Shown here in pieces: positions 32,561 through 57,995 of a stretch of DNA of 64,000 bases. The position numbers and the translations under genes were made by a program. Origin of the DNA: a virus; the IMG/VR virus record IMGVR_UViG_3300031726_000433, positions 1-64,000 of that record; one strand, written 5' to 3'. Every line of letters starts with the position of its first letter. The first letter of the stretch is position 1. Under the pieces are notes generated by a model. It saw only the letters and a program-made list of their open reading frames with translations, was not told where the DNA came from and made no database searches.

Positions 32561-33937
32561 ATGTTCTATAGAATTTATCCATCGAAAGATACGTACATAA
32601 CAAACTACCAATTGAGAAATATCCAGAGAACTGGCTCAAACTTTGGAGCATCTGAGATACTTCACTTACATAAGCTCTGCGGTGTGTCTGGATCTGCCGG
32701 CGTTTCTGCATCTTCAAGTTTCGCTCACATCTTGACTAGATTCGATATTGGAGAGATTGAATCATTGATCGCATCTGGTGAAGCACAATATGGAAATATA
32801 AGATTCTTCCTCAAAATGTCTGATGCAAGACATGATCAGACATTACCAACAAGTTTTGATGTTGAAGTACAAGCTTTAGATAAAGATTGGGATGAAGGTA
32901 AAGGCAGAGATGTTGATTCATTCTCTGATCTTGGTGTGGCAAATTGGGTGAAAGCAAAATCAAATGTATATTGGACTTCACCAGGTGGCGACACTGTAGG
33001 AGTGATAGCTAATACTCACTTTGACGATGGTCATGAAGATCTTGAAGTCGAAGTAACTGACATAGTACAGCAGTGGATATCTTACAATGTCAACAACAAT
33101 GGTGTGATGATCAAGATTTCTTCTTCTCAAGAAGCAGACAACAATGATTACTACGTAAAGATGTTTCATGGAAGAGAAACGTTCTTCAAGGACAAGAGAC
33201 CACATCTTGAAGCAAGATGGGATAACTCAGAAAGAGATGACAGAAATAACTTTTTCTTTGATGTATCTGGAACTTTGTATCTAAATCATCTTGAAAGAGG
33301 TCAATTTACAAACATACCTCAAGTCGGAACTGGTCAACTTGGAGTAAAGATTATCGATGTTTCCGGTTCATTGATTTCGCACGTCACTGCTTCATGGACT
33401 GGATTCACGGGAAGATACAGTGCGTCCTTTGCAATCCCAAGCGGAACGTATTCTGGATCATTATTTACAGATGTCTGGCATGATATATCAAATTCATCTA
33501 GATGGTTCATGTCTGGTACATTCCCAATTTCCGATAGTCTCAATGTCACTAGCGTACAGCCAAAGAGATACTACGCAACGGTAACAAATCTAAAGAGTAC
33601 GTATGAAAATGACGAAGTAGTCAGAATGAATCTGTTCATTCGTCCTCACGATTACAGCCCAGCTCGAGTGCTCACAGCTTCACTCGATGCCAACGGAATC
33701 GTTATAACCAAGGCCTACTATCGTATTATCAATGATCGCACAGACGAGGTCGTGGTCCCTTTCGGCACAGGGTCATTAGAGTATACGAGACTCTCATATG
33801 ATCAACGCGGCAATAGTTTCAAGATTTATATGAATTCCTTGAGTCCAGGGAATGTTTACAGGCTGTCATTCTTATTCGACGTAGACGGTCAGAGACAATA
33901 CATAGATCAACAGGGTTTTAAGTTTAAGGTGGTTTGA
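32561..33937 (+). CDS. virion/baseplate protein (DNRLRE-like N-terminal domain)
   Basis: KDTYI...N.G..E.L, WDEG.G, DVTDIV..W..NNG, P.LE..W. Confidence 0.6.
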   Translation: MFYRIYPSKDTYITNYQLRNIQRTGSNFGASEILHLHKLCGVSGSAGVSASSSFAHILTRFDIGEIESLIASGEAQYGNIRFFLKMSDARHDQTLPTSFDVEVQALDKDWDEGKGRDVDSFSDLGVANWVKAKSNVYWTSPGGDTVGVIANTHFDDGHEDLEVEVTDIVQQWISYNVNNNGVMIKISSSQEADNNDYYVKMFHGRETFFKDKRPHLEARWDNSERDDRNNFFFDVSGTLYLNHLERGQFTNIPQVGTGQLGVKIIDVSGSLISHVTASWTGFTGRYSASFAIPSGTYSGSLFTDVWHDISNSSRWFMSGTFPISDSLNVTSVQPKRYYATVTNLKSTYENDEVVRMNLFIRPHDYSPARVLTASLDANGIVITKAYYRIINDRTDEVVVPFGTGSLEYTRLSYDQRGNSFKIYMNSLSPGNVYRLSFLFDVDGQRQYIDQQGFKFKVV

Positions 33938-33938
33938 A

Positions 33939-34139
33939 ATGGAAGATACACAATTTAGATTTTCTTCTAAGATTCATTACGAGATAGAGCTGGCAAAATT
34001 GCTATCTGAACTTAATAAAATGAGAAACTCCAAAAAGTCCGCTAGACTAATAAAGAAACTTGAAGTGGAATACGAAGATTTGATAGAAGAGTATATGAGG
34101 TTCTGCGGAACAGGAGCTGGTGTAGATGGCAGCCAATAA
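33939..34139 (+). CDS. small hypothetical protein
   Basis: 66 aa, fills the gap and is coupled to both neighbours. Confidence 0.55.
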   Translation: MEDTQFRFSSKIHYEIELAKLLSELNKMRNSKKSARLIKKLEVEYEDLIEEYMRFCGTGAGVDGSQ

Positions 34140-55089: not shown

Positions 55090-56085
55090 ATTTCATTCAA
55101 AACTTTCGATTTGAGCCATGACGTGGCGTCCATTGTATCCTCTATAAATGAGGTCGTCTCTGTATCAAGTTCTATATTCTACTTTGATCAGAACACAAAG
55201 AAGTATTCAAACATCGCCTCTTCATCTGCAGGAGCAGATCTTGGTGGCTATTTCCAGACCATATTCGATTCCTCTCCAACGAGTTCACTAAGTACTGCTC
55301 TCATGGATGTCACTTATGGTTATGCAACCACATCATCGTTCAATCTTCCAGTAACAGCAACAGCTTCTCAGAACGAAAAGATTAAGATTTATAGAATGAT
55401 GGCTTCTTCATTACTCGGGAGTCCAGATTCGCTCTTTACAGTCAACAGCGTTCAGCAACCAGAGTGCTTCTTCATCATGCTGAAGAGAGGAATTCAGAAG
55501 GACGAGATCAAGAAAGGTAGTACGTCTCTTATCATCAATCAGACAAGCGCGCAAATAACTGCGTCTGACGATGGAGCAACGTCAAACTTCAAGCAGACTG
55601 TTGGTGGAGACTATGCTCCGTTGAAGTACAATGGAACGGGAAGTGAAATTGGGCAGGTGTGGTACAACGCCGGTGTGATTGTTATTCCAGATAGTACGGC
55701 CTGGGTAGCTGGCACGACGTTCTGGTCTGGAAGCAAGACGCTAGAGAACCTTCAATCGTCAGGAACTATCAATCAGTTGGCTGATGGTCTTAGAACTCAC
55801 CTAGAAAAGATTAACATTCACAACCAGACAAACTTGTACTCAACGATCTATTTCTGCAGAGCAACGAACTCTGAATTCAACTACTCAAGCAATCCAACGT
55901 TTGTTGATTCCAATAAGAGAATCAGAGTAACATCAGGTAGCAACATCCTACAGACCAGATCCTATGTCACAACAGTTGGTCTATACGATGCAAATGACAA
56001 CCTATTGGCAGTTGCTAAGGTCAACAAGCCTATAACCAAGTCACCTGATAGTGAAGCGATCTTCAGAATCAGACTCGACTACTAA
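55090..56085 (+). CDS. tail/baseplate structural protein, probable ATT start
   Basis: YFCRA...EFNYSSNPTF...YVTTVGLYD..LLAVAK..P..K...IRLDY; in-frame ATT-SFKTFD lies 9 nt after AGGAG. Confidence 0.75.
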   Translation: MSFKTFDLSHDVASIVSSINEVVSVSSSIFYFDQNTKKYSNIASSSAGADLGGYFQTIFDSSPTSSLSTALMDVTYGYATTSSFNLPVTATASQNEKIKIYRMMASSLLGSPDSLFTVNSVQQPECFFIMLKRGIQKDEIKKGSTSLIINQTSAQITASDDGATSNFKQTVGGDYAPLKYNGTGSEIGQVWYNAGVIVIPDSTAWVAGTTFWSGSKTLENLQSSGTINQLADGLRTHLEKINIHNQTNLYSTIYFCRATNSEFNYSSNPTFVDSNKRIRVTSGSNILQTRSYVTTVGLYDANDNLLAVAKVNKPITKSPDSEAIFRIRLDY

Positions 56086-56102
56086 GTTTATATCGAGAAT
56101 AC

Positions 56103-57995
56103 ATGAGTGTCTTTAGAAAATTCGACAGAAATGACATTCTTTTCTCTACTGTTCACACTAGACCTAAGGTGTCTGTTGGATTAAGAAGAAACCAAGATGG
56201 TGTAACTTGGGATTGGTTTGGTTCAACTGGTGCTTCTGGATCATTAAGTTTATACGGTGGAATTAGATCAAGATACAATGTAAAATCAAGTGACTTTAGT
56301 TCATCTGGTATAGCGATATATCCACTTGATCCACTTGATACTCATAGTATAGATAAAGTTGTTTTTGTCTCTGGATCTTATCCGTCGACAGGTTCGATAC
56401 GTCTCGTCACATGCGATAATACTCCATACTCATCTTTTCTAGATGTCACGGACACACAGTGGTATGACGAGCATTTTAGTCCAATAGAATTGTTATTCGA
56501 TCATTACTCAAAGTTTGATTCAAATTATTTTCTTGGTTCTCACGATTTTTATGTTCTTCACTCAAATCTCTGGTATCCATCTTCCGGATGGGGACAAAGC
56601 GTCGTGTTTTCAGGAGCGCTATCTTCTCACCCAATAACATCAACCTCTTCATTTACTGCCGAAGCATGGATAAAACCAACGTCGCAGGTTATGACAAATC
56701 AATTCATAATTGGACAATCTGGATTGTGGAGAGTAGCATTAACGAGTTCAAACGGATCATCTGCAGATTTAGTTTTAAGTATCACAAGTGGATCAACTGT
56801 TGCAACAACTGGATCGAATAATTTTGATGTTCAACCTGGAGTGTGGTCACATGTTGCTGTGGCTGTAAGTGGTGGTGTATCTGCGAGTTTTTATGTCAAT
56901 GGACAATTGAAGTCTAATCTTCAAGTTCCTCTTACGATTCAAAGTGGTTCTTCTACAAAACCGTTGCTGTTGGTATCAGATGTATCATCTTCTGCTCCTG
57001 TATTAAGTCCTCTTCCGTCAACGGGACTCATAGGCGGGCTGAATGGATATATTTTTGAAACAAGACTGTGGAATTCTGTCAGAACAGCAGCTGAGATCTC
57101 ATCTAGTTTTTGTTCAACGCTTATAGCTTCTTCATCTTCTAATCTTTTACATTATGCAAGATTAAATGATGGAGCTTTTTCTTCATTACATGGCTTTAAT
57201 CATGGCGAAGGTGTTTTTGATTATAGCGCAAATGCAAATCACGGATACTTCCTCTTATCTTCTTCAATTGGGATCGGTTTCGAGTGGGAAAGAAATGATC
57301 ATCCAACATTCAAAACAAGATATCAAATCGTAGATACTGATATAAACAGAGTTAAACTTTTCCACATTCCAAGCATGTTCTATGGAAGACAAATAGAACC
57401 AGGATCAGTAAAGATAGTAGATAATTCAAGAAATGATTGGCAGCCTGGTTCTGGCATTACATTTTATTCAGGAATTAAAAAGGTATATATTGACGACGGA
57501 AAAGGTACGTTGTTCTTATCTGGATCAGTTTCAAGACAAATATCAAATGAAGACTATACGGGAAATACAAGGTGCAAAGTAGGAAATGTGTTTTATTCTG
57601 AGGGTTTGATAGTTTTCACAGACAAGACGATAGTACAGACGTTTGTAGATAAGGAATCAACTCGTGCTCAAGTGTTTGATGCAGATGTACTTCCAGCTTT
57701 TACTCTAGAATTTAGAGGTAATGCAAGAATCCATACCAAGACATTCAATTGCAGACTGTCGACGGCGCAGGCGAATGCATCCAATAATCCAACATTCAGC
57801 TACCTTGATGATAATGGCACCGAAGCCACGGATGATGATCGTATGGTGGTTGAGAGGGTGGATGGGATCACATATATTACAGCTGTCGGTCTATACAATG
57901 AGGATAGACAACTTGTAGCTGTCGCGAAGTTAGCTCAACCAATAAGAAAGAGAGAGAAGGACAAGATAAATATTAGATTGAAGATGGATTTCTAA
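56103..57995 (+). CDS. paralog of 55090 with inserted LamG domain
   Basis: FTAEAWIKP...WSHVAV...FYVNG...ETRLWN; C-terminal NPTF...YITAVGLYN...VAVAKL.QP.RK...KMDF. Confidence 0.8.
   Translation: MSVFRKFDRNDILFSTVHTRPKVSVGLRRNQDGVTWDWFGSTGASGSLSLYGGIRSRYNVKSSDFSSSGIAIYPLDPLDTHSIDKVVFVSGSYPSTGSIRLVTCDNTPYSSFLDVTDTQWYDEHFSPIELLFDHYSKFDSNYFLGSHDFYVLHSNLWYPSSGWGQSVVFSGALSSHPITSTSSFTAEAWIKPTSQVMTNQFIIGQSGLWRVALTSSNGSSADLVLSITSGSTVATTGSNNFDVQPGVWSHVAVAVSGGVSASFYVNGQLKSNLQVPLTIQSGSSTKPLLLVSDVSSSAPVLSPLPSTGLIGGLNGYIFETRLWNSVRTAAEISSSFCSTLIASSSSNLLHYARLNDGAFSSLHGFNHGEGVFDYSANANHGYFLLSSSIGIGFEWERNDHPTFKTRYQIVDTDINRVKLFHIPSMFYGRQIEPGSVKIVDNSRNDWQPGSGITFYSGIKKVYIDDGKGTLFLSGSVSRQISNEDYTGNTRCKVGNVFYSEGLIVFTDKTIVQTFVDKESTRAQVFDADVLPAFTLEFRGNARIHTKTFNCRLSTAQANASNNPTFSYLDDNGTEATDDDRMVVERVDGITYITAVGLYNEDRQLVAVAKLAQPIRKREKDKINIRLKMDF

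What the first reader, a model, noticed from the sequence alone, without database searches (positions are those of the whole stretch)
32561..57995. [S/T]-G-S tripeptides saturate the virion proteins: candidate O-glycosylation sequon for the adjacent island
Seen (manual count): about 16 [ST]GS and over 20 [ST][GAS]S in the 974-aa baseplate protein 34126, concentrated in its LamG domains, and many more in 32561, 38654, 40985, 55090 and 56103 (VSGS, FSGS, YTGS, TASS, SAS), versus no [ST]GS found in the 1059-aa SbcDC. The motifs are dispersed, not tandem repeats. Known: TibC/AAH heptosylate Ser in short Gly/Ser turns using ADP-heptose. Inference: these are selected acceptor sites, so island plus sequon-laden baseplate proteins form a virion glycan-coat (heptosylation) system affecting adsorption, stability or camouflage.
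Basis: partly seen in the sequence, partly recalled or inferred. Interest (0 to 1): 0.8.

Follow-up and report, generated by a model that had tools for sequence, protein, structure and literature searches.

The report
Ser/Thr-Gly-Ser tag on phage tail proteins
The outer tail and baseplate proteins of this uncultured T4-like phage carry the ordered tripeptide Ser/Thr-Gly-Ser about five times too often, and across relatives this excess goes with one phage sugar-transferase gene, so it is probably where a phage-made sugar coat attaches, though no chemistry shows this yet.

Summary
The 974-aa protein at 34126 has 16 [ST]GS where 1.5 are expected. In an unbiased scan of all tripeptides over the nine finding proteins, TGS (25 vs 4.0) and SGS (29 vs 6.0) rank first and second.

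The excess survives shuffling within 10-residue blocks. It is order-specific, because G[ST]S, GS[ST], [ST]SG and S[ST]G sit at expectation. It is absent from non-virion proteins. Sites are conserved across 120 homologues, with a median of 14 where 1.4 are expected.

The motif does not track the GT9/ADP-heptose genes, which are absent from motif-rich G004, immuto and RM378. It tracks a GT4-type transferase, "GTB", the N-terminal 430 aa of ORF 9597. All 8 genomes with a GTB or GTB-like gene (RM378's match is distant) are enriched, and 0 of 8 genomes without it are. The jumbo phage LR756508 nests inside the clade and has lost both GTB and most of the motif.

My best reading, at about 0.55, is a cytoplasmic O-glycosylation sequon for virion proteins. 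The main rival is a structural turn motif.

This scan has reported the same motif before on other DNA.

The parts
34126..37050 (+). 974-aa LamG-domain distal baseplate protein, the most motif-dense: 16 [ST]GS, 24 [ST][GAS]S
   Evidence: (PF13385 at residues 148-299)
32561..33937 (+). 458-aa virion protein directly after the gp6-like wedge gene; 5 [ST]GS vs 0.57 expected
37062..38096 (+). 344-aa protein, 4 [ST]GS vs 0.85 expected (p 0.013)
38654..40969 (+). 771-aa Kelch + LamG protein, 6 [ST]GS vs 2.07 and 17 [ST][GAS]S vs 5.68
40985..44698 (+). 1237-aa protein with no family match, 11 [ST]GS vs 2.55
55111..56085 (+).
56103..57995 (+). 630-aa LamG protein, 7 [ST]GS vs 1.47
9597..10886 (+). 'GTB': the GT4-type (EX7E, E287-E295) N-terminal domain of the 1096-aa triple-GT ORF 9597-12887. 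It is the gene whose presence tracks the motif and is the candidate initiating protein O-glycosyltransferase.
10887..12887 (+). GT9 (about residues 615-670) and GT2 (about 769-866) domains fused behind GTB; candidate elongating transferases
7309..8637 (+). 'GTA': 442-aa GT4-type transferase (EX7E, E289-E297), syntenic partner of GTB. Its best solved relative is chlorovirus GT B736L. LR756508 keeps it although the motif is lost there.
12772..26506 (+). Variable sugar island: GT2, GT4, DUF2334, two Glyco_trans_1_2, two methyltransferases, GT9 (17692-18591), SDR epimerases/dehydratases, cupin, UDP-Glc dehydrogenase-like, cytidylyltransferase-like plus PfkB kinase. No clear membrane-spanning protein (one borderline score of 1.62 in the cytidylyltransferase-like 25063).
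45412..53533 (+). Three large motif-poor ORFs (1 [ST]GS in 2705 aa vs 2.8 expected) that look FN3-like by eye; an internal negative contrast
59496..62675 (+).

Best explanation
[ST]-G-S, more loosely [ST]-[GAS]-[ST], is the acceptor signal of a phage-encoded, cytoplasmic O-glycosylation system for virion proteins.

Inferred mechanism: a soluble retaining GT4-type transferase (GTB, here the first 430 residues of ORF 9597) puts the first sugar on a Ser/Thr of the tripeptide. The tripeptide sits between two hydrophobic, strand-like segments of beta-rich baseplate, fibre, neck and sheath proteins. Domains fused or adjacent to GTB (here GT9 and GT2), together with the variable island (more GTs, methyltransferases, nucleotide-sugar enzymes including an ADP-heptose-like branch), then extend and decorate the glycan. 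Different relatives would therefore make different coats on the same sites.

Shown: the statistical excess, its order-specificity, its restriction to virion proteins, site conservation, and co-occurrence with and correlated loss alongside GTB.

Inferred: that sugars are attached at all, which residue is the acceptor, and what the coat does (stability, shielding or adsorption).
For: 1. Unbiased scans. TGS and SGS rank 1-2 of all tripeptides in the finding proteins. In whole proteomes their ranks (TGS, SGS) are 1 and 2 in G000, G001 and G002; 2 and 1 in G004; 7 and 2 in immuto; 7 and 4 in Mel-JY01; 12 and 5 in RM378. In six genomes without GTB, TGS ranks 502 or lower and SGS 123 or lower, except SGS at rank 9 in P-HM2, where it comes with GSG, SGT and SGG.

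2. Order-specific and robust to local composition.

3. Restricted to virion proteins. Non-virion sets hold 4 vs 4.8 expected (G000), 8 vs 10.5 (G004) and 7 vs 12.2 (immuto).

4. Sites under purifying selection. 13 of 19 motif columns are kept in all 4 orthologues. Identity at motif columns is 42/46, against 523/970 overall, versus G002. Across 120 homologues the median is 14 sites (range 5-21) against a median expectation of 1.40. Position 1 swaps S and T, position 2 is G>A/S, position 3 is S>T.

5. Phylogenetic profile. Of 209 G004 ORFs, only 8 are shared with immuto and Mel-JY01 and absent from six motif-negative genomes. Two of the 8 are glycosyltransferases: GTB and a small GT2.

6. Association. 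GTB is clearly present in 7 enriched genomes (G000-G004, immuto, Mel-JY01) and only as a distant match in the eighth, RM378. It is absent by HMM and by six-frame profile search from LR756508, LR756511, C48C1 and P-HM2, by HMM alone from Syn9 and T4, and by tblastn from TJE1 and S-CBS4. Genome-wide observed/expected is 2.4-3.9 with GTB and 0.69-1.43 without.

7. Correlated loss. LR756508 nests with Mel-JY01, G004 and immuto to the exclusion of G000 in MCP, TerL and portal trees (supports 100/98, 91/97, 94/93). It keeps GTA but lacks GTB and the small GT2. Its sheath orthologue has 0 [ST]GS vs 0.6 expected, against 3-7 in G000, G004, immuto and Mel-JY01. Its neck orthologue has 0, against 5, 2, 0 and 2 in those four.

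8. The island has no clear membrane protein; one score is borderline, 1.62 in the cytidylyltransferase-like 25063. This fits a soluble acceptor.

9. DNA is an unlikely acceptor. No thymidylate-synthase/hydroxymethylase family gene is found in G004, Mel-JY01 or RM378. Digested immuto DNA showed dA, dC, dT and fdPreQ1 only (passages of bioRxiv 10.1101/2023.04.13.536721).

10. GTB and GTA both keep the EX7E signature. GTB is fused to varying second GT domains in 82 of the 120 best homologues.
Against: - No chemical evidence of any modification exists for any of these phages.
- The motif lies between hydrophobic segments and is not in indel-prone loops: the indel score is 0.031 near motifs and 0.030 elsewhere, and 1868 of 5000 random placements reach it. 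That fits a tight structural turn as well as an acceptor.
- The association rests on few independent events, roughly one gain and one loss, because the positive genomes form one clade.
- LR756508 keeps a relic: 3 sites vs 0.33 expected in its 55111-like orthologue.
- RM378's GTB match is weak (E 8.6e-10 and 9e-8) and few of its proteins are strongly enriched.
- Three large S-rich ORFs in the same block carry no excess.
- Non-virion proteins show no significant avoidance of the motif.
- The GTB-like small GT2 has no clear counterpart in G000.
Confidence: 0.55

Rival explanations
1. The tripeptide is a structural device, a tight Ser/Thr-Gly-Ser beta-turn ('ST-turn'-like) favoured in this clade's beta-sandwich virion domains. 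Its link with the transferases is shared ancestry only.
For: The motif is flanked by hydrophobic, strand-like residues: family hydrophobic fraction is 0.46 at -1 and 0.53 at +3 and +6, against 0.36 overall. It is not in indel-prone loops. Sites are very strongly conserved, e.g. Ser in 116 of 116 sequences at one column. One site coincides with the conserved Gly of the LamG_3 'G-x-[IL]-D-[ED]' strand (the Pfam consensus is recalled). The positive genomes form one clade.
Against: The excess appears in families with no detected homology to one another: LamG, Kelch, sheath, neck and small proteins. The same folds in relatives lack it: sheath orthologues pool to 21 sites vs 4.5 expected in 5 GTB genomes and 3 vs 3.5 in 5 genomes without. 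LR756508, inside the clade, lost it together with GTB and shows D/N/K/G-type residues at 13 of 15 shared columns (the alignment is weak at that distance). A hydroxyl is required at both positions 1 and 3, and [ST]NS, [ST]DS and [ST]GD/N are not enriched although N and D are good turn formers.
Confidence: 0.25
2. One reading: a TibC/AAH-like GT9 heptosyltransferase uses phage-made ADP-heptose to put heptose directly on the motif serines.
For: The window has two GT9 domains (17692; 9597 residues 615-670) and HldE-like kinase and adenylyltransferase halves plus an SDR epimerase. In G000-type genomes and in Mel-JY01, GT9 is fused to a GTB-like domain. TibC modifies serines in a beta-helix in the cytoplasm (PMC4358343: abstract and passages).
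Against: GT9 is absent from G004 (complete), immuto and RM378, and is not seen on the G003 fragment, all of which are motif-rich. TibC is not among PDB hits at E <= 1. There is no CxxC or iron finger, and 17692 has only 299 aa with its GT9 match starting at residue 152. TibC's mapped sites are N-S-G-G and T-S-A-A.
Confidence: 0.05
3. The tripeptide is read by some other factor: another modification (for example phosphorylation or acylation) or an assembly or chaperone protein. The transferases would then act on something else, such as host envelope sugars.
For: Six of the 8 profile-matching genes are not GTs. Three of them are small ORFs that I did not run against any family library (G004 79243, 121766, 155867). 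GT9-type enzymes normally act on the LPS core. GTA persists in LR756508 without the motif.
Against: No kinase or other modifying enzyme was identified among the 8 profile genes, whose families I did not all scan. The only enzymes that fit are GTs. The island has no clear membrane or export component.
Confidence: 0.1
4. The excess is an artefact of composition (Ser/Thr/Gly-rich fibres), of repeats, or of a DNA word such as GATC inside GGA-TCN.
For: The proteins are S-rich (10-14%). 56 of 92 sites use GGA, which with TCN makes GATC.
Against: Whole-protein and 10-aa-block shuffles and same-composition permutations all fail to reproduce it. The truly low-complexity 2050-aa protein shows no excess (8 vs 13.4). 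Codons are diverse and near background: GGA is 61% against 48%. S and T swap at position 1.
Confidence: 0.02

Closest known systems
Virion O-glycosylation of mycobacteriophages by phage-encoded glycosyltransferases (Freeman et al. 2023, Cell Host Microbe; the paper itself was not held; seen only as cited in passages of PMC12619734)
   Same: Tailed phages carry their own soluble GT genes, and glycans sit on virion proteins. It shows the kind of system exists.
   Different: According to the citing passage, the glycans there sit at the C-termini of capsid and tail-tube subunits. Here the candidate sites are a dispersed three-residue motif in baseplate, fibre, neck and sheath proteins. The tube has 0 sites and the capsid 3. 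The phage clade (T4-like, aquatic) is different, and nothing has been shown chemically.
Bacterial autotransporter heptosyltransferases TibC/AAH (BAHT family; PMC4358343: abstract and passages)
   Same: Cytoplasmic, repeated O-glycosylation of serines in a beta-rich passenger by a GT9-type enzyme using ADP-heptose. The window does encode GT9 domains and ADP-heptose-type enzymes.
   Different: The phage GT9 domains lack the iron finger and show no specific similarity to TibC. GT9 does not track the motif. The acceptor context differs (NSGG and TSAA).
GtfA/GtfB O-GlcNAcylation of serine-rich-repeat adhesins (GT4 family; PDB 4pqg and 5e9t appear only as weak hits, E 0.11-0.79; the biology is recalled)
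   Same: Two adjacent paralogous GT-B/GT4-type proteins act in the cytoplasm on Ser in S-x-S contexts, and further GTs then extend the glycan.
   Different: That acceptor is a long low-complexity repeat, whereas here single tripeptides sit in folded domains. Both phage proteins keep EX7E, while GtfB is non-catalytic (recalled). Sequence similarity is not significant.
Chlorovirus-encoded capsid glycosylation machinery; GT B736L of PBCV NY-2A (PDB 3oy2)
   Same: It is the best solved relative of GTA (E 2e-14 over residues 6-317). A virus encodes soluble GTs presumed to glycosylate its own capsid in the cytoplasm (presumed role recalled).
   Different: It is a eukaryotic giant virus. Its known capsid glycans are N-linked at atypical sequons (recalled). 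GTA, unlike GTB, does not track the [ST]GS motif.
General O-glycosylation of Bacteroidota with the three-residue sequon D-(S/T)-(A/I/L/V/M/T) (recalled)
   Same: A short three-residue O-glycosylation sequon spread over many unrelated proteins.
   Different: That system is periplasmic, with en-bloc transfer from a lipid carrier. This island has no clear membrane component, and the motif is different.

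Membership tests
BAHT (TibC/AAH) protein heptosyltransferases | GT9 (Glyco_transf_9) catalytic domain | tested here: met
   PF01075 in ORF 17692 (E 1.7e-10) and in 9597 residues 615-670 (E 2.6e-11)
BAHT (TibC/AAH) protein heptosyltransferases | Iron-finger: four conserved Cys binding Fe, needed for the dodecamer (PMC4358343 passages) | tested here: not met
   No C-x-x-C in either protein; 17692 has Cys at 221, 263, 264 and 297 only
BAHT (TibC/AAH) protein heptosyltransferases | Specific sequence similarity to TibC (PDB 4RAP/4RB4) and an N-terminal beta-barrel of about 97 residues | tested here: not met
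   PDB hits at E <= 1 are 1psw (LPS heptosyltransferase II) and 3tov, not TibC. 17692 is 299 aa with its GT9 match from residue 152.
BAHT (TibC/AAH) protein heptosyltransferases | The enzyme co-occurs with its hyperglycosylated acceptor | tested here: not met
   GT9 is absent from motif-rich G004, immuto and RM378 and is not seen on the G003 fragment
GT4-type retaining GT-B glycosyltransferases (GTA 7309; GTB 9597 N-terminus) | Glycos_transf_1 C-terminal domain with an E-x7-E signature | tested here: met
   PF00534 hits. E289...E297 in GTA and E287...E295 in GTB lie in invariant columns. The assignment of EX7E to GT4 is recalled.
Protein glycosylation sequon (operational definition) | Excess over composition, order-specific, in an unbiased scan | tested here: met
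Protein glycosylation sequon (operational definition) | Restricted to the presumed substrate class and conserved site by site | tested here: met
   Exception: three large ORFs at 45412-53533 show no excess.
Protein glycosylation sequon (operational definition) | Co-occurs with, and is lost with, a candidate transferase | tested here: met
   8 of 8 genomes with a GTB or GTB-like gene are enriched and 0 of 8 without; correlated loss in LR756508. There are few independent events, and RM378's GTB match is weak.
Protein glycosylation sequon (operational definition) | Acceptor residues are solvent-exposed | tested here: inconclusive
The sequence proxy shows a polar tripeptide between hydrophobic segments, not in indel-prone loops.
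Protein glycosylation sequon (operational definition) | Sugar shown on the residue by mass spectrometry or staining | not testable with these tools
   No such data were found in searches
Mycobacteriophage-type virion glycosylation | Glycans at the C-termini of capsid and tail-tube subunits (as cited in PMC12619734) | tested here: not met
   The tube orthologues of the five GTB genomes that have one hold 0 sites (LR756508's holds 1; no tube orthologue was found in RM378). The capsid has 3 vs 0.8-0.9 expected. Sites are dispersed in baseplate, fibre and sheath proteins.

The most novel reading that the evidence does not exclude
[ST]-G-S is a true O-glycosylation sequon, read on strand-turn-strand elements by a phage-specific GT4-type enzyme (GTB). 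GTB serves as a constant 'anchor' domain, and evolution fuses interchangeable second transferases to it (GT9, GT2, DUF5672). A very large group of uncultured aquatic T4-like phages, plus cultured Flavobacterium, Microcystis and Rhodothermus phages, would then coat their tails with hypervariable, phage-made glycans. That amounts to phage 'serotypes' built on fixed protein sites.
Probability: 0.45. Interest if true: 0.85.

Novelty: new variant of a known kind. Interest (0 to 1): 0.72.

Why it matters
Phage virion glycosylation has been shown chemically only for mycobacteriophages, as far as my searches reached. If this reading holds, several things follow.

- A simple, countable sequon would mark glycosylated virion proteins directly from sequence.
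- It would identify the likely initiating enzyme. The GTB family has at least 3,965 database members at E <= 1e-5.
- It would explain why many aquatic T4-like phages carry large sugar islands without export genes.
- It would give three cultured test systems: immuto, Mel-JY01 and RM378.
- A sugar coat on baseplate, fibres and sheath would bear on adsorption, particle stability, aggregation and recognition by grazers or defences.
- A soluble enzyme with a three-residue sequon would be a useful glyco-engineering tool.

If the structural-turn rival is right instead, the finding is a curiosity of protein design in one phage clade.

Tried and rejected
- Composition, local composition and repeat explanations were rejected.
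- The DNA-word (GATC) explanation was rejected.
- A T4 late-promoter consensus linking the island to structural genes was not found: TATAAATA gives 3 matches, all on the minus strand, against 2.9 expected. No shared intergenic word turned up either. This led nowhere.
- The megablast search of the phage collection found no match.
- A sequence search of solved structures with the 34126 family profile gave only chance-level RACK1 hits.
- Pfam found nothing for the motif-poor ORFs or for several late proteins.
- Weak GTA-like hits in the siphoviruses TJE1 and S-CBS4 were followed up. Neither shows an excess (ratios 1.32 and 1.27) and neither has GTB, so they add two further negatives but no independent positive lineage.
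- Motif avoidance in non-virion proteins was tested and is inconclusive: ratios are 0.57-0.84 and none is significant, while T4 as a whole is 0.68.
- The indel-proxy test for loops was negative.
- The small GT2 that fits the profile (G004 29578) has no clear counterpart in G000; the best is E 0.007 in the G002 fusion.
- Whole-proteome order indices for Mel-JY01 are near 1 (0.85 and 1.19) until two low-complexity proteins are dropped. I dropped proteins with S+T+G above 38%, and they are listed in that output.
- Trees: the gp6 tree did not finish in time. RM378 and T4 are long branches whose placement is unsure.
- Supplementary files of papers were closed. Supplements of the 7-deazaguanine preprint may hold fuller nucleoside data for immuto.

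Full report
**What the window is.** The window is the first 64 kb of a single 98,721-base viral contig, which CheckV rates 48% complete. An identical copy of the 34126 protein lies on a 176,819-base contig elsewhere. All long ORFs are on the + strand.

It is a distant T4-like myovirus. It has a gp6-like baseplate wedge at 30720, a late sigma factor at 27323, and, beyond the window, a major head protein, a sheath and a tube. No nucleotide-level relative exists among 50,697 phage records.

The 974-aa protein at 34126 has 16 [ST]GS and 24 [ST][GAS]S. The other named proteins (32561, 38654, 40985, 55111 and 56103) have 5, 6, 11, 3 and 7 [ST]GS. The SbcC-like ORF has none.

Against 1000 shuffles of each protein, 34126 has 16 where 1.5 are expected (z 11.9). 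Pooled over nine proteins there are 54 where 10.1 are expected.

A scan of every tripeptide in the pooled proteins puts TGS (25 vs 4.0) and SGS (29 vs 6.0) first and second by a wide margin. Nothing comparable appears in the non-structural proteins or in ORFs 45412-54299.

- Shuffling only within 10-residue blocks leaves the excess intact: 12.0 expected, and the highest of 1000 shuffles is 22.
- The four same-composition permutations are at 1.06-1.36 times expectation.
- The middle position prefers G, then A, then S. It does not favour N, D or P.
- Codons at the 92 sites of the genome are diverse, so this is a signal at the protein level.
- The excess continues beyond the window. The neck-like protein at 78851 has 5 vs 0.36. 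Two small proteins at 87959 and 88356, the protein at 81732, the sheath and, mildly, the capsid also show it. The 2050-aa low-complexity giant does not (8 vs 13.4).
- 'Concentrated in LamG domains' is only half true: 8 of 16, 3 of 7 and 0 of 6 sites fall inside the Pfam range in the three LamG proteins.

**The sites are selected.**
- In four orthologues of 34126 (53-69% identical), 13 of 19 motif columns hold the motif in all four while the flanks vary.
- Identity at motif columns is 42 of 46, against 523 of 970 overall, for the most distant of the four.
- Across 120 database homologues (41-100% identical) the median is 14 sites (range 5-21) against a median expectation of 1.40.
- Position 1 alternates between S and T, position 2 is G with some A or S, and position 3 is S with some T.
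- At greater distance (about 25% identity) the positions turn over but the density stays.

**What travels with the motif.** The sugar island is larger than the finding implies. It begins at 7309 with a GT4-type transferase (GTA). An SDR enzyme follows, then a 1096-aa protein with three transferase domains: GT4-type 'GTB', GT9 and GT2. The island then runs to 26506.

Relatives from IMG/VR (G001-G004; G004 is a complete 173-kb genome) and three cultured phages share GTA and GTB next to a PD-(D/E)XK nuclease. The cultured phages are Flavobacterium phage immuto, Microcystis phage Mel-JY01 and Rhodothermus phage RM378. The rest of the island differs among them.

Genome-wide [ST]GS observed/expected is 2.4-3.9 in these eight genomes. 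It is 0.69-1.43 in T4, Syn9, P-HM2, C48C1, LR756511, LR756508, TJE1 and S-CBS4.

In whole-proteome scans of all tripeptides, the ranks of TGS and SGS are 1 and 2 in G000-G002, and 2 and 1 in G004. They are 7 and 2 in immuto, 7 and 4 in Mel-JY01, and 12 and 5 in RM378. In the negatives TGS ranks 502 or lower and SGS 123 or lower. The one exception is SGS at rank 9 in P-HM2, where it accompanies other G/S words.

GT9 does not follow this pattern. It is present in G001, G002 and Mel-JY01. It is absent from G004, immuto and RM378 and was not found on the G003 fragment.

An unbiased profile singles out GTB. Of 209 G004 ORFs, 8 are shared with immuto and Mel-JY01 and missing from all six negatives used. 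Two of the 8 are transferases: GTB and a small GT2.

**A correlated loss.** The 484-kb phage LR756508 groups with Mel-JY01, G004 and immuto, to the exclusion of G000, in capsid, terminase and portal trees. The supports are 100/98 (a clade that also holds RM378), 91/97 and 94/93.

It keeps GTA but has no GTB by HMM or by six-frame profile search. Its orthologues have largely lost the motif.
- Counting the looser [ST][GA][ST], the sheath has 2 against 9-13 in positives, the neck 0 against 3-5, and the 56103-like protein 0 against 5-6.
- At 13 of 15 columns shared by at least two positives, LR756508 lacks the motif.
- A relic of 3 [ST]GS remains in its 55111-like orthologue.

The same fold therefore exists with and without the motif, and the motif's loss coincides with loss of GTB. 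This is the strongest argument against a purely structural reading. It is still only one loss event, and the distant alignments are poor.

**What the acceptor is likely to be.**
- No island protein has a clear transmembrane segment. The highest hydropathy score is a borderline 1.62, in the cytidylyltransferase-like protein. This argues against a lipid-linked, exported polysaccharide.
- DNA is unlikely. No thymidylate-synthase/hydroxymethylase family gene is present in G004, Mel-JY01 or RM378.
- Digested immuto DNA gave dA, dC, dT and a formylated preQ1 base only (passages of bioRxiv 10.1101/2023.04.13.536721).
- GTA and GTB both keep the E-x7-E signature.
- GTA's best solved relative is the chlorovirus transferase B736L (E 2e-14).
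- GTB belongs to a very large metagenomic family: at least 3,965 members at E <= 1e-5 among the 8000 candidates scored. In 82 of the best 120 it is fused to a second domain, which is DUF5672, GT2 or GT9 in the three cases I scanned. That fits an enzyme that sets the first sugar while variable partners extend it.

**What remains open.** No modification has been measured.

By sequence, the tripeptide sits between hydrophobic, strand-like stretches and not in indel-prone loops. This suits a tight hairpin turn, which could be an acceptor (as in the strand-loop-strand sites of autotransporters) or simply a turn.

Three large S-rich ORFs in the block (45412-53533) carry no excess, and I cannot say whether they are virion proteins. 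Non-virion proteins show no significant avoidance.

**Comparison with the known.** The TibC/AAH model fails three of four defining features tested here. The nearest established kind is phage-encoded virion glycosylation in mycobacteriophages. I know it here only through a citing passage, because the paper was not held. Its sites are C-terminal on capsid and tube, unlike these.

Five literature searches found no description of this motif or of glycosylated virions in this clade. The library lacks most subscription journals, and supplements were closed.

**Earlier notes of this scan.** After my own analysis I looked up earlier notes. The same motif has been reported many times on other DNA: 186 notes hold the search words, in at least 165 genomes, and 8 were shown. 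Follow-ups linked it to a pair of soluble transferases. These are unchecked AI notes.

My results agree with them and add four points:
- GTB, not GTA or GT9, is the tracker.
- A nested lineage lost GTB and the motif together.
- Published nucleoside data argue against DNA as the acceptor in immuto.
- The BAHT features are not met.

**Verdict.** The glycosylation reading is plausible and testable in cultured phages but unproven. The heptosylation detail is not supported.

Noticed in passing
window 21391-21888 and 54299-55063: Endonuclease VII / HNH-type ORFs are inserted inside the sugar island and between structural genes. They look like homing endonucleases.
   Followed up: no
window 45412-53533: Three large ORFs (1119, 767 and 819 aa) with no family match. 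By eye they carry several 'Y-x-Y-R-[IV]-x-A-V'-type FN3-like strands, and they lack the [ST]GS excess. They have orthologues in G001 but not in G004, immuto or Mel-JY01.
   Followed up: partly
Mel-JY01 (PP395634.1) 635-8430; loci L048: A 1234-aa multi-transferase (GTB-like E 1.6e-19, plus GT9) lies directly after two very S/T/G-rich proteins holding 37 and 13 [ST]GS. This may be a second, dedicated enzyme-substrate pair.
   Followed up: partly
genome 89632-95784 (L002 6632-12784), beyond the window: A 2050-aa protein with 15% each of S and T and 14% G shows no [ST]GS excess (8 vs 13.4). It is followed by ORFs of 247 aa and 211 aa; Pfam found nothing for the first.
   Followed up: partly
window 38654-40969: A virion-block protein combines Kelch beta-propeller repeats (E 8e-24) with a LamG_3 domain, an unusual pairing for a phage baseplate or fibre protein.
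   Followed up: no
window 1051-5769: Long gaps without ORFs (619, 651 and 595 bases) lie in the region that earlier notes describe as a tRNA array. I did not examine them.
   Followed up: no
GTB family, proteins P0121-P0240: The GTB domain occurs alone in 38 of the best 120 homologues and in longer, fused forms in 82. The fusions I scanned are with DUF5672, GT2 or GT9, a modular architecture.
   Followed up: partly
RM378 (NC_004735.1) 9165-15269: The thermophilic phage RM378 has only a minimal set: GTA p013, a GTB-like p014, and two small GT2 paralogues p016 and p017, with a ribonucleotide reductase gene between them and no sugar-synthesis genes nearby. It still shows a 2.7-fold motif excess.
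   Followed up: partly
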